Source: a virus. From it: a stretch of DNA of 64,000 bases. The notes under the pieces were generated by a model that was not told the origin of the DNA, ran no database searches, and saw only the letters and a list, made by a program, of their open reading frames with translations. A program made the translations under genes and the position numbers. Below, piece by piece: positions 3,477-43,925 of this stretch. The stretch spans positions 128,498 through 192,497 of IMG/VR virus record IMGVR_UViG_3300042389_001478; one strand, 5' to 3'. Within the stretch, counting starts at the first letter, position 1; every line of letters starts with the position of its first letter.

Positions 3477-4280
3477 TTATTGTCTTGGAACAGTGTGCGG
3501 CTGGTCTATTCGTTTGTTAAATGCTAGACTTTTCCATAGACCATCTTGATATTTATTTTCGTCACCACAATCAAAAAGAGACAAGGATTTAGAGATATCA
3601 GAAATTAATCCTGGCCACATTTCTAAACTTAATAAATGATTATGCGGCTTATGCCAATTTTCATTTTGTAAAAGATTAGCATCAAACCAAAAAAAAGTAC
3701 CAGAATAATGAAATTTGCTATTAAAATAACAGTCACGGGTGGTTCTTAAGCAGCCAACGAATTCGTATCGATTTGATTCTATTTGTGGTTTGACAAGATT
3801 ATGGAATAGGTCTATATTATATTTCCATAACGTGTTTACCCAGCAAGTCATTGCATAATTTTTTTCTGGATGACTACATCCTTTAGCATGACCAAAGAAT
3901 ACGAAATTTTTACTTTGGTCTTTTTTCAAAAGACTAGACATTAAAGGTGCTGATTTATAAAAAAAATGTTCTGATTCTTTTAGTTTATCAGAGTTTGATA
4001 CTGGTATAATATAAATATCAGAAGATTTAAAAATATCGACTACTTTTTGAAAGATGCGATTATTATGAAATTCATTATCGGGGGACGATACTGTTATGAT
4101 TTTGTATCCATTAAAAATATTTAGACTATTTTTTAGTTTTTCTATTGCATAATGTGTTTTTTCGTGATCTAAGCAATAGATATGGAATATTAGATGATAA
4201 TTTATCGCACTTTCATCTTTTTGGGATAATTCTATAAAACTGTCTTTTTGTTTTTTTTTACAAAAATATTTAAATATCAT
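3477..4280 (-). CDS. Hypothetical protein, possibly glycan-modifying
   Basis: 267-aa ORF at the end of a glycosyltransferase run; FFGHAKG and HYSGTFFWF motifs resemble phage GT-associated proteins. Confidence 0.45.
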   Translation of the reverse strand: MIFKYFCKKKQKDSFIELSQKDESAINYHLIFHIYCLDHEKTHYAIEKLKNSLNIFNGYKIITVSSPDNEFHNNRIFQKVVDIFKSSDIYIIPVSNSDKLKESEHFFYKSAPLMSSLLKKDQSKNFVFFGHAKGCSHPEKNYAMTCWVNTLWKYNIDLFHNLVKPQIESNRYEFVGCLRTTRDCYFNSKFHYSGTFFWFDANLLQNENWHKPHNHLLSLEMWPGLISDISKSLSLFDCGDENKYQDGLWKSLAFNKRIDQPHTVPRQ

Positions 4281-4282
4281 AG

Positions 4283-6082
4283 TTAATATAGTTCATAGAA
4301 TTGATCTAAAGAAATAATATTGAGTATCTCTTGTCGATTATTATCAAAATATTCCCAATTATTTACTATTTCTTCAATCTTTAAAGCATCATATGTTTTC
4401 TGTGATCCGGGACGTACTACGCCAACTCCCCAGTCGGTATCAATAACACTAACTGTTAGATCCGGTCTTGTGCATCTTAGTTTGGCTATAGATTTCCAAA
4501 CATCTCCATTCCATAGTCCTGTAACGCGAGGTATTAGCTGTAGTTCATATTCTGGTGGATTACAATCATGAACAATAATAGTTCCATTCTGATTCAAGTG
4601 CTTAATAGAGTTGATTATGTCCTTATCTACCTGTATTGAATTATGCAATCCGTCTACAAAAATAATATCATATTTCTGGTTTTCGGGTATTGATGAAAAA
4701 AATTTATCAGAAGACATGCGGTAGTTGATTTCCGGAACAAAGATTCCACCCACCTCAGACCCAGGAGATGGATCAACGCCGTCTTTGTGAGGGATTTCAA
4801 TTTGACGAATGCACAAGCCATCATTAACGCCAATTTCTAAATATCTGGTATATTGATTTTTTTTAATCAAATAGTTTATTATATCCCATCTTTGTGTGCC
4901 AACCCTATTAAGGTATTTCTCGATTGTATATTTTTTACCCACTTTTTGTTTTTCTATTGTACTCAAACTATTAATCTTAAATAATAAATTATTTATTTTA
5001 TATAATCCAATTTTATTAATTTTATGAATAATTTTTTGTATATTCTTAATGTTTTCTATATCTTCTGGATCAACTTTCTCGCAGTCTATCATCACTATGT
5101 TAGTGGTCTGATTTGATTGCAAATAATTAATATCTGTATGTAGTTTATTTTTAAGGATTATTTTTGTATTTAATTGTTCCTTGTTGATATATTCATCAAT
5201 AAGTTTTGTAGCATATGGGTCGTCTATAGAAATATTTTGTGCGAACGGCTCCAAAAATGAGATGGATTCAAGAGAGCAATTTTTAGCAACTATTGAAACG
5301 TCGTATGTGGAATCTTCTGTTATAGAGCCCCATTTTCTTATATAGTTTCTAATGCTTTGATTTTCTATTTTTTCAGTACTGTCTTTGTACTCTTCAGAAA
5401 ACCTAGAGGTTTTTGATATGAAATGATAACACAGAGAGTCCGAGCAAGTAAAGCAACTGATATTTTCCAGCATCTTTAATCTTTTAATAAGATCGTCGTC
5501 TTCTCGAAAAAACGGAGAAAAAAGATTATCAAATCCATCTATATGTAAAAACACTTTCCTGGATAAAGCCATAAAAAAGGTAATACCCGGCTCTGTTTTG
5601 TCTTTATCCTTTTCTATGGTAGATTTTGCAAACTGTTCGAATTTTGTTCTATTAAAAGTTGTTAGAGTATCTCCACAGTCGTAAATAATTTTTCCTGGTC
5701 TTGAATGATGTCCAAAAAGAGGATGCTCTATAGTAGTATATGATACAACATTGTTGGGGGTCAAATGTTTTGATAAATTTTCTAAAAAACTAGAATATAA
5801 AATAATATCATTGTGTAAAAAAACTATGTATTCTTTTGTTGCTATCTGAACAGCTTTATTATATGTGTCAGAAAAAGATTTAGACTTATCATTGGCATAG
5901 AATATTTTTACATTAAAATCCGAAAGAGAGATTTTTTCTAGCCACTCGTTAGTTCCATCTGTGGAGTCATAGCTAGCAAAACATATCTCAGTATCTGGAT
6001 AAAGATTTCTTGTTGTTGTATAGAATGACTCTGTGTATTCAAGGTTATTTTTTATAGCAACTAATAAAGAAATATTATTCAT
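4283..6082 (-). CDS. GT2 glycosyltransferase fused to a class I SAM methyltransferase (Methyltransf_24-like)
   Basis: N-terminal YDSTDGT, VFLHNDI, GFD..F...EDDDL; C-terminal YLEIGV, DIIFVDGLH, IIVHDC. Confidence 0.8.
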   Translation of the reverse strand: MNNISLLVAIKNNLEYTESFYTTTRNLYPDTEICFASYDSTDGTNEWLEKISLSDFNVKIFYANDKSKSFSDTYNKAVQIATKEYIVFLHNDIILYSSFLENLSKHLTPNNVVSYTTIEHPLFGHHSRPGKIIYDCGDTLTTFNRTKFEQFAKSTIEKDKDKTEPGITFFMALSRKVFLHIDGFDNLFSPFFREDDDLIKRLKMLENISCFTCSDSLCYHFISKTSRFSEEYKDSTEKIENQSIRNYIRKWGSITEDSTYDVSIVAKNCSLESISFLEPFAQNISIDDPYATKLIDEYINKEQLNTKIILKNKLHTDINYLQSNQTTNIVMIDCEKVDPEDIENIKNIQKIIHKINKIGLYKINNLLFKINSLSTIEKQKVGKKYTIEKYLNRVGTQRWDIINYLIKKNQYTRYLEIGVNDGLCIRQIEIPHKDGVDPSPGSEVGGIFVPEINYRMSSDKFFSSIPENQKYDIIFVDGLHNSIQVDKDIINSIKHLNQNGTIIVHDCNPPEYELQLIPRVTGLWNGDVWKSIAKLRCTRPDLTVSVIDTDWGVGVVRPGSQKTYDALKIEEIVNNWEYFDNNRQEILNIISLDQFYELY

Positions 6083-32569: not shown

Positions 32570-33499
32570 CTATAGTACAGGTTTGATGATACCATATCCT
32601 TCATATTTTCTAATTCCAGCATACTTGCTATGATTTCCTAGTTTTTCAGTTCCCTTAGAAAAAACTTTAACATAGTCGTCTGAGGATTCTAGTCTATTGT
32701 CTATATTTGAAAATTTTTCTTTACGAGAATAAGACAATAATAAAGAGGCACAACCTACTGCAAATGGATTAGCCATGCTAGTCCCAGTCATTGAAGCATA
32801 TCTATTACCGGGAACTGAACTTATAATATTATATCCTGGAGCTAAAAAATCCAACTCTTCTCCACAGCAACTAAATTGACAAATATTTAAGTTTTCATCT
32901 ATCGCTCCAACACTAACAGTATCGCTATATTTTGCTGGATATTGTATGCCGGACTCAATACCGCTATTACCTGCTGCACAAAATATCGAAACATTTTTTC
33001 TTTTGGCGTATTGTATGGCTTGTTCTAGTTGTGTCCCAGGACTTGGAGATCCAAGAGACATTGCTAAAATATCCGCCCCATGATCAACTGCCCAAACTAT
33101 GCCATCAGAAACAGATTTATTGCTACCTGACCCATTGCCAGCCAAAACTTTTACTGGCATTATTTTTGTTTTTGGAGCTAATCCTACCATGCCAATACCA
33201 TTATTAATAGCTGCAATTGTGCCAGCGACATGTGTTCCGTGTCCATTATCGTCTTGTGGATCTTTACCTGGGTCTATGAAATTGTATCCATTAACTATGT
33301 TAGCTTTGATATCTTCGTGGTCAAGGTCACATCCAGTATCAATTACAGCTACGGTAACTCCTTCTCCTTCAGAATATTTCCAATATTTTTCTATGTTAAA
33401 TTTTTTAATTTGCCAACCGTAAAATTGCTCACTATTAGTTGATAATCCATAAAGATCTGTTCTAATATGTGGTAATAATTTAAATTCTTGTTTTTTCAT
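32570..33499 (-). CDS. Subtilisin-like (S8) serine protease
   Basis: VAVIDTG, HGTHVAG, GTSMANP triad; no signal or propeptide. Confidence 0.95.
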   Translation of the reverse strand: MKKQEFKLLPHIRTDLYGLSTNSEQFYGWQIKKFNIEKYWKYSEGEGVTVAVIDTGCDLDHEDIKANIVNGYNFIDPGKDPQDDNGHGTHVAGTIAAINNGIGMVGLAPKTKIMPVKVLAGNGSGSNKSVSDGIVWAVDHGADILAMSLGSPSPGTQLEQAIQYAKRKNVSIFCAAGNSGIESGIQYPAKYSDTVSVGAIDENLNICQFSCCGEELDFLAPGYNIISSVPGNRYASMTGTSMANPFAVGCASLLLSYSRKEKFSNIDNRLESSDDYVKVFSKGTEKLGNHSKYAGIRKYEGYGIIKPVL

Positions 33500-34254
33500 T
33501 TTTCAGTTGTACATTCTTTTATTGTTGTTTTAATCCATTTAACATATTTACTAACTCTAGTATGACAACTTTCATCGCCATATGTTGAATTTGGCTTGCC
33601 ATCCACGGCAACAACAGAAGAATGAATCCCGGCTAGTTTTCCGTCTATAAATAACCCACCCCCGCTGTCACCACTAGCAATTAAATATTCAAGCTCAGTT
33701 GATTTCTGATGTCTCTTGGATGGAGAACACATGAGTACGTTCCTCTCTATGCCATCTACGAAATTTGAACCGCCGCGCCTTTTATCATCCGAAAAAGTAT
33801 AGCCTACATCGAACGTGCCGGTAAATCCCCACCCCGCCATGCAGCATATTTTACCAACTTCATCGCTTGACTCATACAATGCTGGATAGAAATCGAACTT
33901 AAGCTCTTCTTCGCTATATCCTAAAGCAATATCATCATATCCAAAATTATCTGTTTTATAGTTAGGATTTAAAATTACTTTTGATAAATTATATTTTTTA
34001 TCTTGTACTGAAATTGTCCATGTTTGACAATTTTCTACAACATGTGCGGCTGTTACAATCCAATGAGGATCAATAACTACTGCCGACCCACAGGACAATC
34101 CTTTGCCGTCAAAACAACATATTTTTACGACATGATTAAACTTAGCTCCATACTCTAGGTATTTAGAGTCTGGGGTATTAGGATCGATTGTTCCGCCCCA
34201 TATATTTGTCATTATAGATAGACAAAGGACCATGAACATTATTAGTTGCTTCAT
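33496..34254 (-). CDS. Trypsin-like (S1) serine protease with signal peptide
   Basis: VTAAH, DDIAL, GDSGG triad. Confidence 0.93.
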   Translation of the reverse strand: MKQLIMFMVLCLSIMTNIWGGTIDPNTPDSKYLEYGAKFNHVVKICCFDGKGLSCGSAVVIDPHWIVTAAHVVENCQTWTISVQDKKYNLSKVILNPNYKTDNFGYDDIALGYSEEELKFDFYPALYESSDEVGKICCMAGWGFTGTFDVGYTFSDDKRRGGSNFVDGIERNVLMCSPSKRHQKSTELEYLIASGDSGGGLFIDGKLAGIHSSVVAVDGKPNSTYGDESCHTRVSKYVKWIKTTIKECTTEK

Positions 34255-34274: not shown

Positions 34275-34607
34275 CTATGGTCTATTTTTCACCCTATCTA
34301 AATACACCGAGCAATCTTCTATGACCATCTTATTATGGCTCTTAAAGTTCATAAGATGACCGAATATTAGATGACAAGGATCAGCACAAAGAGTTACTAA
34401 ATTTGAAGGGGCCAGCTCAAGTTCCGGACTAATATGAACTGGAACTTTATGATGAACTTCTAATTTTTTATCCCTTCCACATGCTATACAATATGGATTA
34501 TTTTTAAGATGTTCTTTTCTCACGTTCGTCCATTTCGGAGACCTAGAGGCGAATCTAATTTTTAAAAAGTTGAACATGACTATAAGACCTTGGCAGCTAT
34601 TAAACAA
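34275..34607 (-). CDS. Small HNH endonuclease
   Basis: CIAC...EVHH...NLVTLC..CH. Confidence 0.8.
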   Translation of the reverse strand: MFNSCQGLIVMFNFLKIRFASRSPKWTNVRKEHLKNNPYCIACGRDKKLEVHHKVPVHISPELELAPSNLVTLCADPCHLIFGHLMNFKSHNKMVIEDCSVYLDRVKNRP

Positions 34608-35581
34608 CCCTTTGCAACCGCATGTAGGGGGTCTGAGGCGTGTCTTATCTCTTTGATGGGGATGGGGAACCCATTCTCCTCCATCTTCTTTTTAAAGTTC
34701 TCTATATATCCTTTAGCTTGTGAAGTTCCTCCAGCAACCACGATGCTGATAGGATTCTTAAATTTTGGAAGAGACTTATGTCCAGTTAGTGCAGACGATA
34801 AATTTTTAGTGGTATAGTCAATTAATCTTTCATAGTATGCTGATACGGCAGCTAGTATTGGATTATCAACAGGTTCTCCTATTGTAAAATTACCACCCTC
34901 TTTCTCCACTTGGACAACACTATCTGGTTCACCTGTTGCTACAGCACTCATCCTATCAATCCAGTCGCCCGACTTTGTTGTAGAGAATAATACCGTTGGT
35001 TCACCATTAAGCATAACGCAAACATTGGTCATTCCAGCACCACAACTAACTCCGATACCAGTATAGTCATCGTTCTCTAATTCAGCATAACATAACGCCT
35101 CTGCTTCATTGATTGATTTTGCGCTATATCCACATTCTCCAAGAATAGTTTTAACAACATCCTCATGATATCCAACGTCAAAATCCTCATCTTCCTGATC
35201 AATCGGTTGTGCAGGAATACAAAATACTATCTTTTCTCCTGGTTCTGATGCTTGTCCAGCAACTTCTTTGAGAATAAATGCTAGGACTCTTTTTGCATCT
35301 TTTTCCTTGGCAGATACTACGCCTTTAAACATTGGTCTTTTTGCGGTATCATTTCGTTCTATTGCTTTTTCAATAGCGTCTTTACCTAAGATAATAAATG
35401 CCCCATCATTATCTTTGATAAAAACCTTTCCATTTAATCCTTTTTCTATCATCTTTGTAGCAACTGGTGTGGTTGGTTTAATAACGTAAAAGGCGTCTCT
35501 AAAGTCTTTATACTCTATGTTTCCTTTTTTTGAATCTCTACTTAATACAATAAAGCTTGTACCTACGTCTAAACCTACCAT
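34580..35581 (-). CDS. Actin-family ATPase (resembles the Salactin/MamK-type clade)
   Basis: Phosphate-1 GLDVGT, connect-1 INEAEA, phosphate-2 SCGAGMTN, adenosine VAGGTS, connect-2 DPLHAVAKG. Confidence 0.88.
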   Translation of the reverse strand: MVGLDVGTSFIVLSRDSKKGNIEYKDFRDAFYVIKPTTPVATKMIEKGLNGKVFIKDNDGAFIILGKDAIEKAIERNDTAKRPMFKGVVSAKEKDAKRVLAFILKEVAGQASEPGEKIVFCIPAQPIDQEDEDFDVGYHEDVVKTILGECGYSAKSINEAEALCYAELENDDYTGIGVSCGAGMTNVCVMLNGEPTVLFSTTKSGDWIDRMSAVATGEPDSVVQVEKEGGNFTIGEPVDNPILAAVSAYYERLIDYTTKNLSSALTGHKSLPKFKNPISIVVAGGTSQAKGYIENFKKKMEENGFPIPIKEIRHASDPLHAVAKGCLIAAKVL

Positions 35582-35598
35582 AATAATATCTCTCTTTC

Positions 35599-35910
35599 TT
35601 ATTTTTTCATGTTCTTAAGCTTACTAACAGAAGAAGATATGTTTTCATCGGAGTCCTTGATTTCTCCTAGCGTTGCATACTTCTTTTCCATGCCCTCTGT
35701 TGTTATGCTGGTCACAAATTTACTAGAATCTATTGAGATAGCCTGTTTAGTATCTTTATTAACAATAGATTGTAGCACCTTGCTTGGCTGACTACCTATA
35801 GATACACCAGACATAGACCTTAATTGGCCTAAAATATAGCCTAATATAAGACAGACTATATGAGATATAACGAATAAAGAGAGTAGTATTATATGAGCAT
35901 ATTCATTCAT
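35599..35910 (-). CDS. Single-pass membrane protein upstream of the actin gene
   Basis: N-terminal hydrophobic helix; C-terminal SSVSKLKNMKK basic helix. Confidence 0.65.
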   Translation of the reverse strand: MNEYAHIILLSLFVISHIVCLILGYILGQLRSMSGVSIGSQPSKVLQSIVNKDTKQAISIDSSKFVTSITTEGMEKKYATLGEIKDSDENISSSVSKLKNMKK

Positions 35911-36277
35911 TAGTATACCATTTGTGGAAGTCTTTGAAAGACATATACCCTTTTCGTCTTTTAATTTCTAAATTTTCTCTATATATTATAGAGTCGGGTA
36001 TCATCTTGACCATATACTCTTTAACTAAGTCTGGTCGTTTATCAAAGTCCACAAAACATATTATACTATTAAACTTATCAACATTTTCACGAATATCTCT
36101 TTTTAGCAGATTACACGATGGGCACCAACCCGCACCAAATACTATCAAAATATCTTGTTTAGTTTCTTGCGATAAGATAAAAGCGTCTTCTAAATTATCT
36201 ACAAAAACAGACTGAGCCACAGAAATTGACTGACTACTCAACATTAATAGACAAAAAGCATGGAGTATCCTAGACAT
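35903..36277 (-). CDS. Exported thioredoxin-like protein
   Basis: Signal-like N-terminus, WCPSC, MIP cis-Pro loop. Confidence 0.82.
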   Translation of the reverse strand: MSRILHAFCLLMLSSQSISVAQSVFVDNLEDAFILSQETKQDILIVFGAGWCPSCNLLKRDIRENVDKFNSIICFVDFDKRPDLVKEYMVKMIPDSIIYRENLEIKRRKGYMSFKDFHKWYTNE

Positions 36278-37175
36278 CTCCTATTACTCTTCCCTTTTGA
36301 GTTCTGGTAACATAACCCATTCTAACAAGATATGGCTCTATGCTATTCTCAATAGTTTCCATTGCTATTCCAGTTAATGAGGATATGCTCTTGAGTCCAA
36401 GAGGATTCATTCGGTTTTTCTTTAAGACCTCAAGATACATTCTATCATAAATATCAAGACCCTTATTGTCAATTCCTTGATTATCAAATATTTCATCAAT
36501 ACTTGGGGTTCTATCTTTATGGTAAGAGGTAAAGCTCTTATACCATTGAAGTCGTGCATTAAGAATTCTTGGAGTCCCCTTACTTCTTGCTGCAATCTCT
36601 TTAAGGTCATTTTCAGGAATTGTTAGTCCGATCTTTTCAGCATTCAACCTTGCTACTTTAGCTAAATCATCTACAGAATAGAACGAAAGATGTTCCTTGA
36701 TTGTGAATCTATCGTAAAAAGGTTGGCTTAAGCTTCCTCCGCTAGTAGTTGCTCCCACAACCGTAAACATCGGAAGATCAATAACTTCAGGCTTTTCTTC
36801 AACTACTGTACTTAAAACAAAATCCTCCATAACAGGATAAAGAAATTCTTCCACTATCTTTGGAAGTCTGTGAATTTCGTCGATAAACAAAACAGAACGA
36901 GGAGCTATACCCATCAAATATGGGAGTAGATTTTTAATACTGCGTACATTAGCCCCATTGACCACATACAGGTTTTCCCCCATCTCATTAGCTATGGCAC
37001 TCGCTATAGTGGTCTTTCCAAGTCCCGGTGGGCCATCTATTAAAGTATGAGGCATCACGCTGGCTGAGTTTTTACAGCCTGACACAATGATGTTCAAACG
37101 CTCTACAACAGAGGCTTGTCCAATGATATCGTCAAATCGAGAAGGTCTAGAAGCATTAGCCATAATTTTCTCCAA
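36270..37175 (-). CDS. ruvB: Holliday junction branch migration ATPase RuvB
   Basis: RP..FDDIIGQ, GPPGLGKT, FIDEIH, GATT, RSKGTPR, IEPYL, RT.KGR. Confidence 0.95.
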   Translation of the reverse strand: MEKIMANASRPSRFDDIIGQASVVERLNIIVSGCKNSASVMPHTLIDGPPGLGKTTIASAIANEMGENLYVVNGANVRSIKNLLPYLMGIAPRSVLFIDEIHRLPKIVEEFLYPVMEDFVLSTVVEEKPEVIDLPMFTVVGATTSGGSLSQPFYDRFTIKEHLSFYSVDDLAKVARLNAEKIGLTIPENDLKEIAARSKGTPRILNARLQWYKSFTSYHKDRTPSIDEIFDNQGIDNKGLDIYDRMYLEVLKKNRMNPLGLKSISSLTGIAMETIENSIEPYLVRMGYVTRTQKGRVIGDV

Positions 37176-39813: not shown

Positions 39814-40695
39814 TTACCTATAAAAACCGTTGTTGTCTACATCTTCTTCATCACTATCAAAATCGTCCTCATCTTCATCCTCATCATCAAACTGATCCCA
39901 ATAGCTTTCATCGTAATCATTCAGATAATCATCCTCATCGTCCTCGTAATCATCCTGACTAAAATCAGCCTTGTAAAGAGGCTTAAGAAGTTCACCTTCA
40001 TACTCAGCCACCACTTCATAGCGACAAGTACGGAGCTTTTCATAGTTGCAATCACTAGGAACGCTCACAACATCCTTGGGATTAATCTTGACGATTACGA
40101 TACGGTCGCCAGCCTCCAGACTACCATAACCAGCGACATAATTCAATGCCCCAGCATGAAGTCCATTAGAACAACCACGACCACGATCATCGTCAACCTT
40201 AGATCGCGTCATCTCACAGACCTTACCAACCCTGTTGTCAAAAACTCCACGGTACTTATCCTTAAAGTCTGAACGAACAGCCTTATAGGCAAGGAAGAAA
40301 CCATCCTCGGTAATCGGGAGATGCTCATGCTCCAAGAAATCATACAATTCCTTCTGACTCTGCATACTTGGATTTTCCATGAGATTATTCAGGAAATTAA
40401 CGAGGGGCTGGAAAGGTAGTCCCTTGCTCATAAACTCTAGAATTCTCTTGCTAATACTACCATGAACTTCCTCACCCTCATAGAGAACCTGTCCATTCTT
40501 AATCTCCACAAGACCGTCACTAAAAGAAGCAACAGCCTTTTGAACATCAACAACTTCCAAAAGTTCCTCTGCCGTAGCAGTAGGAAGTCTTTCCAGAATC
40601 AACTTATAGTTGATATGATCTGGCAAAATTTGATAACTTTGATTATTCAACACCAGAGTTAGATTCCCGTCAACGAACATAAATGGAACAGCCAT
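39814..40695 (-). CDS. rIIB: rIIB-like protein
   Basis: LPITEDG.FLAYK.V, CS.GLHAG, VKINPKDVVSVP.D....KLR.C.Y.VV; downstream of rIIA. Confidence 0.88.
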   Translation of the reverse strand: MAVPFMFVDGNLTLVLNNQSYQILPDHINYKLILERLPTATAEELLEVVDVQKAVASFSDGLVEIKNGQVLYEGEEVHGSISKRILEFMSKGLPFQPLVNFLNNLMENPSMQSQKELYDFLEHEHLPITEDGFFLAYKAVRSDFKDKYRGVFDNRVGKVCEMTRSKVDDDRGRGCSNGLHAGALNYVAGYGSLEAGDRIVIVKINPKDVVSVPSDCNYEKLRTCRYEVVAEYEGELLKPLYKADFSQDDYEDDEDDYLNDYDESYWDQFDDEDEDEDDFDSDEEDVDNNGFYR

Positions 40696-41243: not shown

Positions 41244-43925
41244 CTACTTGATTAAACTACTCAACTGAATCCTAAACAGGTCAATATTTTCCTGGCTCAT
41301 CTGCTCGACCCAATCTCTACTCTGCTTTCCATAGTATGAGCGATCCTCAATAATAGGATTCTGATTAGACTTTAGATCTGTCAGATTACCACTAACTTGA
41401 TGAGTCCCCATAATATATTTCAGCATAGGATTCTTGTCTACCTCAGTCTTAATTTTTTCCCTAATCTCAGAGATTTTCCATGTTTTAATGTCTTGAGTAG
41501 AAGTCCCACTGATAATTTTGAGATAGCTTTCTATCTTATCTACTTGACCATTATACAAGTTGTGAGAAATCATTCTTGTCAAGGTGTTATAAGCCAAGTT
41601 AGCATTACGAATCTCTTTACCATCAACATCTTCTATCCCAGCCTCTTTCATAAGCTTAGAGATATGAGACAGATACTCTGTTTGGTTGAACTTGGTAATA
41701 TTGTAAGGACTAATATGAACAGTATTAGCGAAAAACTCTGTAAGTATTGTTTTATTCAAGCAGTCCACAAGAGTCTTGTTGCCAATAAACTTATCATAAT
41801 CTAGACCAAAGATATTTAGAATATGAAACATAAACTGCTTATCAGTTGTTCCATGGTTATAGTATCTATAGCCGCCACCCTTACTCTTCTCTTCTTCGTT
41901 AAAGTCTTTCTTGCAATATTCAACAAGCTTGTTGACTGAAGCGAGATTCTTAAAGTGCTTTTGTGCTACAACTTTAAGTTGACGCTTCAAAAAGTCATTG
42001 AAGTTAACAAGATTGTATCCATCTTTCTCAAGCTTTTTAGCGAAAGCTGTTTTAATAGCATAAATCTTGTTGTCTCCAACCAAGTCCTTGACTATGCTCT
42101 TAAGTGTTTGATCCCTAAGAGTAATTGCAATATCATTAATCTGTGGATAACCGGACTCATCCTCAGTCTTATAGCGGAGCATGGGAACATACACAATCTC
42201 ATCTTGTTCCAGAAAATCTTCCAGTTGTTCTTCTGAAAGGATTCTAAGACAAGTAGCATCGTTGTAAGGATTAGTAATCTGCTTACTATCCTTATCATAA
42301 CCGTGAATAAAGAATACGTCTTGGTCACTGACACTACCATTAGAATTTCTATTATAAGACTTTCTTGGGCCAGAACTTTGTGTCAGATGCTTGTAGTCCG
42401 AAACCTTTAGCAGATTTTCAGACCCAACATCTTCGATCAGCTTATCAAAACCTTCTTCGCTCTTGGTATAATCCTTAGTGTCAATCAAGAGATACGCAAA
42501 GCAATCATTCGCATTGCAATATCTTGTAAGAATTTTCTTAGCGGTTTCTTCGCCCTTGATATCGCACACAAAGAAAGCCATCGTACCTTTCTTCTTCTGG
42601 CTGTTCCAATAATTGTAACCTTTACCAGTAAGAGTTTCATGATGGATTCTATCTGTCAGGGCAACTTGGCGACGAGAACGATAGCCAGCAGTCTTATAAT
42701 TAAAAACGTACAGACTCTTACCGGCAGGAATTTTATATTCCAGATCATTGCCAGAGTTGATAGGATGATCTTTACCCTTGGGATCAGTCCAAGTAGCACC
42801 AACACCCCAACCGCCAGCCAATTCATTCATAGTATAATATGAAGTAATTGCTTCTACCTTGTTTTGGGCAGCTTGAATTTTCTTGGAGAATTCTTCCTTC
42901 ATCTCCATGTAAATTTCTTGGGTCTTTTTACGCAGAGTCTTGATAACATCTTTAGTATACTGCAAACCTTCACGGGAAACATCCATCTCCAGTTCACCGA
43001 TACCAAAATCAAGCTCAAGATAAAGTCCAGAGTTAAGAATTTCTCCAACGAAACTCTTCCAAGAATCAATATCTGCTTTCTGGAAAGCCCTATTCCACTT
43101 CTGGATATGATCGGGCATTTCTTCTTTCTCTTGACCCACAATCTGTGCGGTCTGAACAGGATAGGCAATATTGCCCATGATAGCTACGATACCACTATCA
43201 ATTCGATGATAGTTACTTGGGAAATAGCTATTATCGTTATTAAGACGGCAAACCCTCCAGCCATCACCACTAATAATAATGTTGGTATTGCTATACTTAT
43301 GATCTTGCAGATTATTCCCAATACCACCTTCAAGGATGGGTTTCATGCGGAAATAGTGGAAGATTCTCTTAGCCTTGTCAGTAAACTCTTGAAAGTCATG
43401 CTGCTTAACAGCAAAACTAATCTCAAGACCATTAGGCTCAGATGTATTAGAAGTATTGAAAAGATTCAGAGTAGGAACACCACTCTCATCAATCGCCGCA
43501 ATATAGGTATACTTCTTACCGTTGTAATATGATGCGGTGGTGAAGCTCTTGGTATATGCGAAAGGACTCTTAGACCCTAGACCAAGACAACCAACAAAAT
43601 CATTGCTATCATTCTTGTTGGATGCTCCGTAGGTTGTATACAAGTCCTCCATATCTGCCTGACTAAGACCAGTGCCATAATCTCTCACCACAAAAGTGGG
43701 ATTTGCAGCGGTGGGCAGAGTAACCTTAAAGGGATTCTTATTCCCGGCAGAGATATGGCTATCATAAGCATTAGTAGAAAGCTCACGAATCGCAGCCATA
43801 ACCTTATCAGAATAAAGAGAGTCTGAAAGGATTTTAAACATTTTGCTCGTCTGAGCAATGTTAAACTGATTCCTGCTTGCAACGCCAACGCTGTGAGTCT
43901 CAATCGTCCTATCTGCCAACTTCAT
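41244..43925 (-). CDS. rIIA: rIIA-like protein (N-terminal GHKL ATPase fold)
   Basis: LSDSLYSDK..AAIRELSTNAYD, RDYGTGL, G.LGLGSKSPF; paired with rIIB. Confidence 0.88.
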   Translation of the reverse strand: MKLADRTIETHSVGVASRNQFNIAQTSKMFKILSDSLYSDKVMAAIRELSTNAYDSHISAGNKNPFKVTLPTAANPTFVVRDYGTGLSQADMEDLYTTYGASNKNDSNDFVGCLGLGSKSPFAYTKSFTTASYYNGKKYTYIAAIDESGVPTLNLFNTSNTSEPNGLEISFAVKQHDFQEFTDKAKRIFHYFRMKPILEGGIGNNLQDHKYSNTNIIISGDGWRVCRLNNDNSYFPSNYHRIDSGIVAIMGNIAYPVQTAQIVGQEKEEMPDHIQKWNRAFQKADIDSWKSFVGEILNSGLYLELDFGIGELEMDVSREGLQYTKDVIKTLRKKTQEIYMEMKEEFSKKIQAAQNKVEAITSYYTMNELAGGWGVGATWTDPKGKDHPINSGNDLEYKIPAGKSLYVFNYKTAGYRSRRQVALTDRIHHETLTGKGYNYWNSQKKKGTMAFFVCDIKGEETAKKILTRYCNANDCFAYLLIDTKDYTKSEEGFDKLIEDVGSENLLKVSDYKHLTQSSGPRKSYNRNSNGSVSDQDVFFIHGYDKDSKQITNPYNDATCLRILSEEQLEDFLEQDEIVYVPMLRYKTEDESGYPQINDIAITLRDQTLKSIVKDLVGDNKIYAIKTAFAKKLEKDGYNLVNFNDFLKRQLKVVAQKHFKNLASVNKLVEYCKKDFNEEEKSKGGGYRYYNHGTTDKQFMFHILNIFGLDYDKFIGNKTLVDCLNKTILTEFFANTVHISPYNITKFNQTEYLSHISKLMKEAGIEDVDGKEIRNANLAYNTLTRMISHNLYNGQVDKIESYLKIISGTSTQDIKTWKISEIREKIKTEVDKNPMLKYIMGTHQVSGNLTDLKSNQNPIIEDRSYYGKQSRDWVEQMSQENIDLFRIQLSSLIK

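What the first reader, a model, noticed from the sequence alone, without database searches (positions are those of the whole stretch)
34580..35910. Phage-encoded Salactin/MamK-like actin with an adjacent membrane-anchored partner: candidate actin-based phage cytoskeleton
Seen: a 333-aa protein with all five actin-fold motifs intact (GLDVGT, INEAEA, SCGAGMTN, VAGGTS, DPLHAVAKG). The gene directly upstream (35599..35910) has one N-terminal TM helix and a basic C-terminal helix. Established: jumbo phages position DNA with tubulin (PhuZ), and the Corynebacterium prophage CGP3 uses the actin AlpC with adaptor AlpA. From memory, blocks such as RPM..G..S..EK.A, PGEK...PA.PID, Y.EL...YTG.G.S.GAGMTN and GDWID...A.ATG resemble haloarchaeal Salactin (a dynamically unstable, pole-anchored actin related to MamK) more than ParM or MreB; this is unverified. 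Inference: a membrane-tethered actin filament that moves or positions phage DNA, capsids or the replication compartment, in one operon with RuvB.
Basis: partly seen in the sequence, partly recalled or inferred. Interest (0 to 1): 0.88.

Follow-up and report, generated by a model that had tools for sequence, protein, structure and literature searches.

The report
Phage volactin-type actin with membrane adaptor
A 192-kb uncultured bacteriophage encodes a genuine actin of the "volactin" family (first described in the salt-loving archaeon Haloferax) just after a small membrane-anchored protein with a conserved tail, so the phage probably builds membrane-tethered actin filaments, which no searchable paper describes for phages.

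Summary
Window 34580-35581(-) encodes a 333-aa actin-fold protein with all five quoted motifs. Window 35599-35910(-) encodes a 103-aa protein with one N-terminal TM helix and a basic C-terminal helix.

The family name was wrong. The protein is a full-length member of Pfam Volactin (PF25216, 205 bits), not Salactin (PF25229, no hit). The AlphaFold model (pLDDT 96.6) is closest to filament-forming MamK, BeeR and MreB (Z 26-27.5).

The partner idea is supported:
- All 85 close-lineage loci keep the small TM gene upstream.
- Its tail (...S-[IV]-x-KLK-x-[ML]-K) is nearly invariant, although overall partner identity is only about 43% where actin identity is about 83%.
- A tail profile trained on this lineage picks out the upstream ORF in distant phage lineages (p = 6e-21).
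- Archaeal and bacterial volactin genes also follow a tail-bearing gene. In archaea this is the 4-TM CdpA-like DUF7139 protein.

Most likely the module forms dynamic actin filaments tethered to the inner membrane through the adaptor tail. The cargo is unknown, and a role in DNA positioning is not shown.

This scan has reached the same reading on other phage genomes several times. I found no paper that describes it.

The parts
34580..35581 (-). Volactin-family actin, 333 aa
   Evidence: PF25216 204.9 bits against a cut-off of 35, residues 2-330. AF2 pLDDT 96.6. MamK filament 5ljv Z 27.5, BeeR 8r2n Z 27.4, MreB about 26. Family-invariant D5 G7 T8 R82 P83 E159 S179 G181 G183 N186 G205 D206 D209 G284 G285 G325.
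35599..35910 (-). Membrane-anchored adaptor candidate, 103 aa. The 17-nt gap before the actin start contains AAAGAGAG.
   Evidence: Present upstream of the actin in 85/85 close-lineage loci. No Pfam or PHROG family.
35815..35904 (-). N-terminal transmembrane helix of the adaptor (residues 3-32)
   Evidence: Hydropathy. AF2 helix 3-32, pLDDT 92-98. The sequence varies among relatives.
35605..35739 (-). Conserved cytoplasmic tail region of the adaptor (residues 58-102): I.ID..K.V..I.T.G.EKKY ... NIS.S[IV].KLK.[ML]K. The terminal helix 91-102 is at 35605-35640.
   Evidence: Per-column conservation across 56 unique partners. K97 and L98 invariant. The strict tail pattern occurs in the last 15 residues of 1 of 199 genes of this genome. 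PSSM test.
35903..36277 (-). Thioredoxin-fold protein with a signal-peptide-like N-terminus and WCPSC (context; lineage-specific)
   Evidence: PF00085 E 3e-10. Absent at this position in L001 and L085. The signal peptide was read by eye.
36270..37175 (-). RuvB-like AAA+ ATPase (context; same strand, overlapping gene ends)
   Evidence: RuvB_N E 7e-45, RuvB_C E 3e-18. Synteny kept in L001 and L085.
34275..34607 (-). HNH endonuclease directly after the actin gene. The likely true start is the ATG at 34577.
   Evidence: PF01844 and phrog_144. Same position in L001 and L085.
33496..34254 (-). Exported trypsin-like protease (context). Its homologue is fused to the adaptor in L066/L067.
   Evidence: PF00089 E 2e-18. 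L066:4842-5990 reads signal peptide, trypsin, TM, then the same tail.
32570..33499 (-). Subtilisin-like S8 peptidase (context)
   Evidence: Peptidase_S8 is called at the syntenic position in L001 and L085. ORF. The window's own copy was not scanned.

Best explanation
The two genes form a phage-borne cytoskeletal module.

Shown: the 333-aa protein is a Volactin-family actin with an intact nucleotide-binding core. Its predicted fold is closest to filament-forming bacterial actins.

Shown: the 103-aa partner has an N-terminal transmembrane helix, a poorly conserved and probably disordered linker, and a strongly conserved C-terminal region that ends in a short basic amphipathic helix.

Inferred: the actin polymerises with ATP into dynamic filaments, as H. 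volcanii volactin does.

Inferred: the partner's cytoplasmic tail binds the filament, at its end or its side, and tethers it to the inner membrane. This follows the logic of the ParR C-terminal helix on ParM, or of AlpA on AlpC.

Inferred, and least certain: during infection the tethered filaments organise something in space. Candidates are replication or assembly sites, or an envelope-spanning complex with the exported proteases and thioredoxin encoded alongside.

Across the family the tail stays while the N-terminal part of the partner changes: one TM helix here, four TM helices in archaea, a soluble domain in most other phages, and coiled coils in bacteria. The module therefore looks like a filament plus an exchangeable anchor or cargo adaptor.
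For: Family and fold:
- PF25216 at 205 bits.
- AF2 pLDDT 96.6.
- Best structural matches are the MamK filament, the BeeR filament, MreB and F-actin. PilM, FtsA and EutJ score lower in TM (0.53-0.60 against 0.72).
- The tree places it among volactins, apart from Salactin and MreB.
- Inteins sit exactly in the S|CGAGM and |GDWID motifs of relatives, as expected for indispensable sites.

Partner:
- Kept in 85/85 close-lineage loci. Four have a GIY-YIG endonuclease inserted between the two genes; two are fused to a trypsin.
- Median identity is 83% for the actin and 43% for the partner, yet the partner's last 45 residues are conserved.
- A PSSM trained only on this lineage scores the upstream ORFs of loci with <60% actin identity far above other ORFs: at 4 bits or more, 13/71 against 0/524; Mann-Whitney p 6e-21.
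- A relaxed L[KRA]x[LAMIV][KRL] motif is in the last 25 residues of 38/71, with many near-misses among the rest.
- AF2 of the partner alone gives a TM helix, a low-confidence middle and a terminal helix, pTM 0.29.

Cellular parallel:
- Archaeal volactin genes follow a DUF7139 4-TM gene with GLKxLKGGE and AKLKELRE motifs in its tail.
- hhalign of phage against archaeal partners aligns the tails, P 3.3e-4.
- PMC12126565 notes the CdpA-like HVO_2016 beside volactin HVO_2015.
- PMC10869688 reports volactin filaments that are dynamic and touch the membrane by their tips.
Against: - No polymerisation, ATPase or binding data exist for any phage member.
- Contact between tail and actin was not modelled here, because no multimer tool was available. 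The tail could instead be a membrane-binding amphipathic helix, or it could bind a third protein.
- The phage-archaeal partner similarity is a short motif only (hhalign probability 38%). It could be convergent.
- The volactin signature has Ser in place of the usual first Asp of the phosphate-2 motif, so the kinetics may differ from those of classical actins.
- No cargo was identified.
- Neighbours other than the partner are not conserved across lineages.
Confidence: 0.6

Rival explanations
1. Envelope or cell-shape manipulation. The filament and its TM adaptor organise periplasmic enzymes (exported trypsin, thioredoxin, S8 protease) or reshape the host cell. This would echo volactin's role in Haloferax morphogenesis rather than a role in positioning phage DNA or particles.
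For: In L066/L067 the adaptor is one polypeptide with a signal peptide and a trypsin domain on the far side of the TM helix. In the window the module sits between an exported thioredoxin and an exported trypsin plus an S8 peptidase on one strand. Volactin affects the rod-to-disk transition. One bacterial relative is fused to a Wzz/BY-kinase-type envelope protein (P0170).
Against: The proteases and the thioredoxin are absent next to the module in other phage lineages. Most phage partners have no TM helix at all.
Confidence: 0.2
2. A ParMRC- or AlpAC-like DNA segregation or positioning system. The filament pushes or pulls phage genomes through a DNA-binding adaptor.
For: Phage actin AlpC with the DNA-binding adaptor AlpA is a precedent. 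Some bacterial volactins carry an N-terminal ParB-type HTH (P0161, 27.8 bits against a cut-off of 22.6). The soluble N-terminal domain of most other phage partners has unknown function. The module lies in the early/DNA-metabolism arm of the genome, near rIIA/rIIB, a primase-like gene, RuvB and a ligase.
Against: The window's adaptor has only a TM helix, a linker and a tail, with no DNA-binding domain. No iteron or centromere-like repeats lie within 32-41.5 kb. No second strong tail-bearing protein exists in the genome; the next PSSM score is 7.4 against 44.6.
Confidence: 0.15
3. A non-polymerising ASKHA ATPase (chaperone-, kinase- or PilM/FtsA-like) whose neighbour is unrelated to it.
For: The actin fold alone does not prove polymerisation. 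The phosphate-2 motif is atypical (S-x-G-A-G-M).
Against: The characterised founder of the family polymerises in vivo with the same motif. The best structural matches are filament formers. No Hsp70, sugar-kinase, PilM or FtsA HMM matches at E<=0.1. The partner is co-conserved.
Confidence: 0.05

Closest known systems
Volactin (VolA, HVO_2015, UniProt D4GU28) of Haloferax volcanii with its neighbour HVO_2016 (CdpA-like, DUF7139); Pfam PF25216
   Same: Same Pfam family over the full length. Same signature blocks (DxGT, RRPM, PAxPID, S-x-GAGM-x-N, GDWID, GGTS). A membrane protein gene lies directly upstream, and its cytoplasmic tail carries LKxLK-type motifs. Volactin filaments are dynamic and meet the membrane at their tips.
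   Different: About 33-35% identity. The window protein lies in a phage-only, deep-branching subclade. The partner has one TM helix and 103 aa instead of four TM helices and about 300 aa, and it does not match DUF7139. The setting is a bacteriophage, not an archaeal chromosome. A function in cell shape is unlikely to carry over directly.
AlpC/AlpA of Corynebacterium glutamicum prophage CGP3 (PMC4446434)
   Same: A phage-encoded actin with a co-transcribed adaptor that binds the filament. Early expression, with a role in organising replication.
   Different: AlpC belongs to the ParM/Alp group. No such HMM matches here. AlpA binds DNA, whereas this adaptor is a membrane anchor without a DNA-binding domain.
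MamK (5ljv) and BeeR (8r2n) bacterial actins
   Same: The best structural matches: Z 27.5 and 27.4, rmsd 3.0-3.2 A over about 291-294 residues.
   Different: About 20% identity. No magnetosome or BeeR gene context. Z values are within about 1.5 of MreB and about 2 of F-actin, so the ranking is nearly a tie.
Salactin of Halobacterium salinarum (Pfam PF25229)
   Same: A haloarchaeal, dynamically unstable, membrane/pole-associated actin.
   Different: A separate family: no HMM match, different motif blocks and a separate clade. Several Halobacteriota genomes have both families.
PhuZ tubulin spindle of nucleus-forming jumbo phages
   Same: A phage-encoded dynamic cytoskeleton used for intracellular organisation.
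   Different: Tubulin fold, not actin. No tubulin-family match in this genome.

Membership tests
Volactin (Pfam PF25216) | Full-length match to the family HMM above the curated cut-off | tested here: met
   204.9 bits against a cut-off of 35, residues 2-330 on profile positions 3-321. The six-frame search of the genome gave 204.7 bits.
Volactin (Pfam PF25216) | Signature blocks shared with H. volcanii VolA (DxGT, RRPM, S-x-GAGM-x-N, GDWID, GGTS) | tested here: met
   Invariant columns of alignment A1, compared with the D4GU28 sequence printed in a supplement of PMC12050087.
Volactin (Pfam PF25216) | Groups with volactins rather than Salactin or MreB in a tree | tested here: met
   A 70-row group, comprising 69 volactin-family rows and one aberrant long-branch MreB-locus ORF (L287), separates from Salactin and the two other MreB rows (SH-aLRT 88). 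The window lies in a phage-only clade (95*). Quick IQ-TREE, 75 rows.
Volactin (Pfam PF25216) | Dynamic ATP-dependent polymerisation | not testable with these tools
   Known only for the H. volcanii protein in vivo.
Salactin (Pfam PF25229) | Match to the family HMM | tested here: not met
   No hit at E<=0.1. The model is in the library.
MreB/Mbl incl. MamK (Pfam PF06723) | Match to the family HMM above the cut-off | tested here: not met
   23.4 bits against a cut-off of 27, residues 55-129 only. Structural similarity is high.
ParM/Alp-type partition actins (AlpC, ParM) | Family HMM match; a DNA-binding adaptor; centromere-like repeats | tested here: not met
   No such Pfam hit at E<=0.1. The adaptor lacks any DNA-binding domain. 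No iterons in 32-41.5 kb.
CdpA-like / DUF7139 (PF23600), for the partner | Four-TM N-terminal domain matching DUF7139 | tested here: not met
   The window partner has 0 Pfam families and one TM helix. The archaeal partners match at E 1e-13 to 1e-48.
CdpA-like / DUF7139 (PF23600), for the partner | Homologous cytoplasmic tail | tested here: inconclusive
   hhalign of A4 against A3 aligns the phage tail to the archaeal VxGLKxLKGGE motif, P 3.3e-4, probability 38%.

The most novel reading that the evidence does not exclude
Volactin plus a tail-bearing upstream gene is an ancient, modular cytomotive system shared by archaea, bacteria and many large phages. A short conserved C-terminal tail couples exchangeable N-terminal anchors or cargo binders to a dynamic actin filament. 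The N-terminal parts seen are one TM helix, four TM helices, a soluble domain, coiled coils and a periplasmic protease. In phages this would be a third, widespread type of virus-encoded cytoskeleton, after PhuZ tubulin and AlpC. In this phage it would be tethered to the host inner membrane.
Probability: 0.45. Interest if true: 0.8.

Novelty: new variant of a known kind. Interest (0 to 1): 0.7.

Why it matters
Phage cytoskeletons are known mainly from the tubulin PhuZ of nucleus-forming jumbo phages and from one prophage actin, AlpC. This module occurs in hundreds of uncultured phage contigs. IMG/VR gave 283 close stretches and 417 stretches for the wider family. It appears in phages from roughly 40 kb contigs to 500-600 kb genomes.

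It offers a simple two-protein system for studying how an actin filament is coupled to a membrane or to cargo. It also gives a concrete, testable hypothesis for the archaeal pair HVO_2016/HVO_2015, namely that the CdpA-like tail is the volactin anchor. That link has so far only been hinted at in the literature.

Tried and rejected
- PHROGs holds no family for the actin or for any partner, so isolate-phage annotation gave nothing.
- The PDB sequence search gave only a weak hit to BeeR. Fold comparison was needed.
- The search for related loci with the 41-sequence alignment failed because no block was conserved enough. Single divergent queries returned 1-3 loci each. A 5-sequence alignment worked.
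- Gp23 capsid and tubulin were not found in the genome. The Gp23 search rang in no control genome, so it is uninformative.
- The rIIB protein gave only ~42% matches to assorted jumbo phages, so it gives no host. The three close contigs binned into MAGs of Chitinophagia, Flavobacteriales and Alphaproteobacteria disagree, so the host stays unknown.
- GGTGTA, noted by other readers as a promoter motif, is barely enriched (24 against 17±4 expected) and does not lie upstream of the module. Sigma-70-like and terminator scans were near the shuffled expectation.
- N-terminally extended relatives were examined as possible natural adaptor-actin fusions. None was a clean fusion.
- I considered folding a stop-read-through fusion of partner and actin. 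I left it out because the tool returns no contacts, so the docking site could not be read.

Full report
**What is there.** On the minus strand, window 34580-35581 encodes a 333-aa protein that carries the five quoted actin-fold motifs. A 103-aa ORF (35599-35910) ends 17 nt upstream. It has one strongly hydrophobic N-terminal stretch and ends in ...SSSVSKLKNMKK.

The surrounding genes run on the same strand with overlapping or near-touching ends:
- rIIA and rIIB
- a primase-like gene
- four small ORFs
- a RuvB-like AAA+ gene (36270-37175)
- a thioredoxin-fold gene with a signal-peptide-like start (35903-36277)
- the partner and the actin
- an HNH endonuclease
- an exported trypsin (33496-34254)
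- an S8 peptidase

No terminator-like site separates RuvB from the peptidase. The window is the last third of a 192,497-bp IMG/VR virus record that CheckV rates complete.

**Which actin.** Pfam places the protein in Volactin (PF25216): E 2.8e-60, 204.9 bits, full length. MreB_Mbl matches below its cut-off and over only 75 residues. Nothing else matches at E<=0.1.

Pfam has a separate Salactin model (PF25229), and it does not match. A supplement of PMC12050087 prints both reference sequences. Salactin AAG18772 reads differently at each of these places.

Both families occur in Halobacteriota. Volactin is over its cut-off in 61 of 301 sampled genomes, and Salactin in 28 of 151. Several genomes have both.

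**Fold and phylogeny.**
- With a 41-sequence alignment, AlphaFold gives pLDDT 96.6 and pTM 0.93.
- Foldseek and VIA-align rank the MamK filament (5ljv, Z 27.5, 3.0 Å over 291 residues) and the BeeR filament (8r2n, Z 27.4) first. MreB follows (about 26) and then F-actin (about 25).
- PilM, FtsA and EutJ align worse, with TM 0.53-0.60 against 0.72. The ranking among filament formers is close to a tie.
- In a quick IQ-TREE of 75 representatives, a 70-row group comprising the 69 volactin-family rows (phage, bacterial and archaeal) separates from Salactin and from two of the three MreB rows (SH-aLRT 88).
- The window protein sits in a phage-only clade of eight representatives (95*). This clade lies outside a starred clade that holds the remaining phage, bacterial and archaeal members.
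- In that larger clade phage and bacterial rows interleave, with at least five changes forced by starred branches.
- One MreB row (L287) was a bad ORF call with a very long branch; it fell inside the 70-row group and should be ignored.

**Spread.**
- The exact lineage (>=80% identity) occurs in 283 IMG/VR stretches, on contigs up to about 250 kb.
- The wider family has 973 clusters at 50% identity and 417 IMG/VR stretches on contigs of 5-497 kb.
- It also occurs in two published huge-phage genomes of 485 and 595 kb.
- Cellular members were found in Planctomycetota, Omnitrophota, Desulfobacterales (including the complete Desulfosarcina variabilis genome), Archaeoglobaceae, Thermoplasmatota and others.
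- PHROGs has no family for it.

**The partner.**
- In all 85 close-lineage loci with a readable upstream region, the small TM protein is present. In 79 it lies directly upstream. In four a GIY-YIG/NUMOD3 homing endonuclease is inserted between the two genes. In two the ORF is longer.
- Over 78 locus pairs the median identity to the window is 83% for the actin but 43% for the partner. The partner's last ~45 residues (I.ID..K.V..I.T.G.EKKY..LG..K...NIS.S[IV].KLK.[ML]K) are nevertheless highly conserved, and K97 and L98 are invariant.
- A strict tail pattern occurs in the last 15 residues of only 1 of 199 genes of this genome.
- I trained a PSSM only on the close lineage and applied it to loci whose actin is <60% identical. 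The ORF directly upstream scored far above all other ORFs of those loci. At 4 bits or more the counts were 13/71 against 0/524; at 0 bits or more, 18/71 against 3/524; Mann-Whitney p 6e-21.
- A relaxed L[KRA]x[LAMIV][KRL] pattern is in the last 25 residues of 38/71. Most of the rest are near-misses, or are homing-endonuclease-like genes inserted between the partner and the actin.
- Folded alone, the partner is a TM helix (residues 3-32, pLDDT >90), a low-confidence middle and a terminal helix (91-102, pLDDT about 80), with pTM 0.29. That is an anchor, a flexible linker and a short terminal element rather than a globular protein.

**Modularity of the partner.**
- In the window's own clade the N-terminus is a TM helix, or in some members an amphipathic or basic stretch.
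- In most other phage lineages the partner is 190-280 aa. It has a conserved soluble N-terminal domain of unknown family, a low-complexity or coiled linker, a motif E-[VP]-[YF]-[VI]-P-[ST], and the basic ALKxLK tail.
- In Archaeoglobaceae and haloarchaea the upstream gene is a 250-350-aa protein. Its four-TM domain matches DUF7139, and its tail carries VxGLKxLKGGE and DDQTAKLKELRE.
- In Omnitrophota, Planctomycetota and Desulfosarcina the upstream gene encodes coiled-coil proteins that end in similar motifs.
- hhalign of the phage partners against the archaeal partners aligns the tails with P 3.3e-4 and probability 38%. This suggests common origin but does not prove it.

**Links to the literature.**
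- PMC12126565 notes that HVO_2016, a CdpA-like four-TM protein, lies beside volactin HVO_2015. The authors call this a hint of a common function with cytoskeletal systems.
- CdpA itself tethers FtsZ rings through a TM domain, a linker and a small C-terminal domain.
- PMC10869688 reports that volactin filaments are dynamic and bind the membrane by their tips. This is what a tip-binding membrane adaptor would produce.

**Interpretation.** The best-supported reading is a filament-plus-adaptor module, in this phage tethered to the inner membrane. The following are shown:
- the family assignment
- the intact motifs
- the actin fold
- the co-conservation and architecture of the partner
- the cellular parallel

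The following are inferred: polymerisation, direct binding of the tail to the actin, and any role in positioning.

The cargo is open. A DNA-partition role like ParMRC or AlpAC has some indirect support:
- Some bacterial volactins carry ParB-type HTH fusions.
- The module lies in the early/DNA-metabolism arm of the genome.

Against this role, the window's adaptor has no DNA-binding part. There are no iterons nearby. There is no second strong tail-bearing protein in the genome.

An envelope-directed role is suggested by a natural fusion. In L066/L067 the adaptor is preceded, in the same polypeptide, by a signal peptide and a trypsin domain homologous to the window's separate trypsin gene. This fusion also fixes the topology: N-terminus outside, tail in the cytoplasm. 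These neighbours are lineage-specific, however.

**Prior knowledge.** I found no paper on phage volactins. A 2026 review of jumbo phages mentions actin once and only the tubulin PhuZ as a phage cytoskeleton.

Within this scan the same module has been reported repeatedly on other phage genomes, with the same closest-known assignment. I reached the reading independently before looking these up, except for the trypsin fusion. A note prompted me to interpret that fusion, and I then verified it.

Noticed in passing
L091:4001-6088; proteins P0121, P0131, P0137, P0204, P0216, P0243, P0244: Phage volactins carry inteins at two sites: between Ser179 and the next residue (extein ...GxS | CGAGM...) and just before GDWID. 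Both sites are family-invariant motifs. The window's own Cys180 in SCGAGMTN is the +1 extein residue of the intein-bearing alleles.
   Followed up: partly
L019:739-1347, L075:916-1521, L077:5387-5992, L081:1095-1700: A GIY-YIG/NUMOD3 homing endonuclease is inserted between the adaptor and actin genes in four close relatives. The window instead has an HNH gene directly after the actin.
   Followed up: partly
L066:4842-5990 (also L067): A natural fusion of signal peptide, trypsin domain, TM helix and the same KLKNMKG tail. It links the exported protease to the actin adaptor and fixes the membrane topology.
   Followed up: yes
P0161, P0143, P0177 (ParB HTH); P0238 (zinc ribbon); P0170 (Wzz/GNVR/ParA-like); P0124, P0135, P0138 (two actin domains): Longer volactin-family relatives (sources mostly unknown; P0170 is from Planctomycetota) are fused to a ParB-type HTH, zinc ribbons, or a polysaccharide co-polymerase/BY-kinase-like module. 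Some are tandem double actins.
   Followed up: partly
G000:C1:124026-124517(-) and 125930-126349(-) = L288:2027-2518 and 3931-4350, just before the window: Two small proteins of unknown family end in weakly tail-like sequences (...LSIQKIKMVKHG and ...NIISKLKDLDQ). PSSM scores are 4.8 and 3.1, against 44.6 for the adaptor. They are possible further filament-binding proteins, or chance matches.
   Followed up: partly
window 34275-34607: The HNH ORF called from TTG overlaps the actin gene by 28 nt. An ATG at 34577, 3 nt after the actin stop, fits the 102-105-aa homologues in L001 and L085 better.
   Followed up: no
L098, L099, L106 (Omnitrophota); L102, L110, L115 (Planctomycetota); L116 (Desulfosarcina variabilis): Bacterial volactin genes also follow a gene whose product (coiled-coil, 137-700 aa) ends in an LxxL[KR]-type basic motif.
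   Followed up: partly
L092, L093, L094: Short contigs (7-9.5 kb) with 76-81% identical actin and the adaptor are binned into MAGs of Chitinophagia, Flavobacteriales and Alphaproteobacteria. These are probably phage DNA mis-binned, and the host signal is inconsistent.
   Followed up: no
window 41244-43925 and 39814-40695: rIIA and rIIB homologues lie adjacent. rIIB has a long acidic repeat-rich C-terminus, which accounts for the only direct-repeat family in the region.
   Followed up: no
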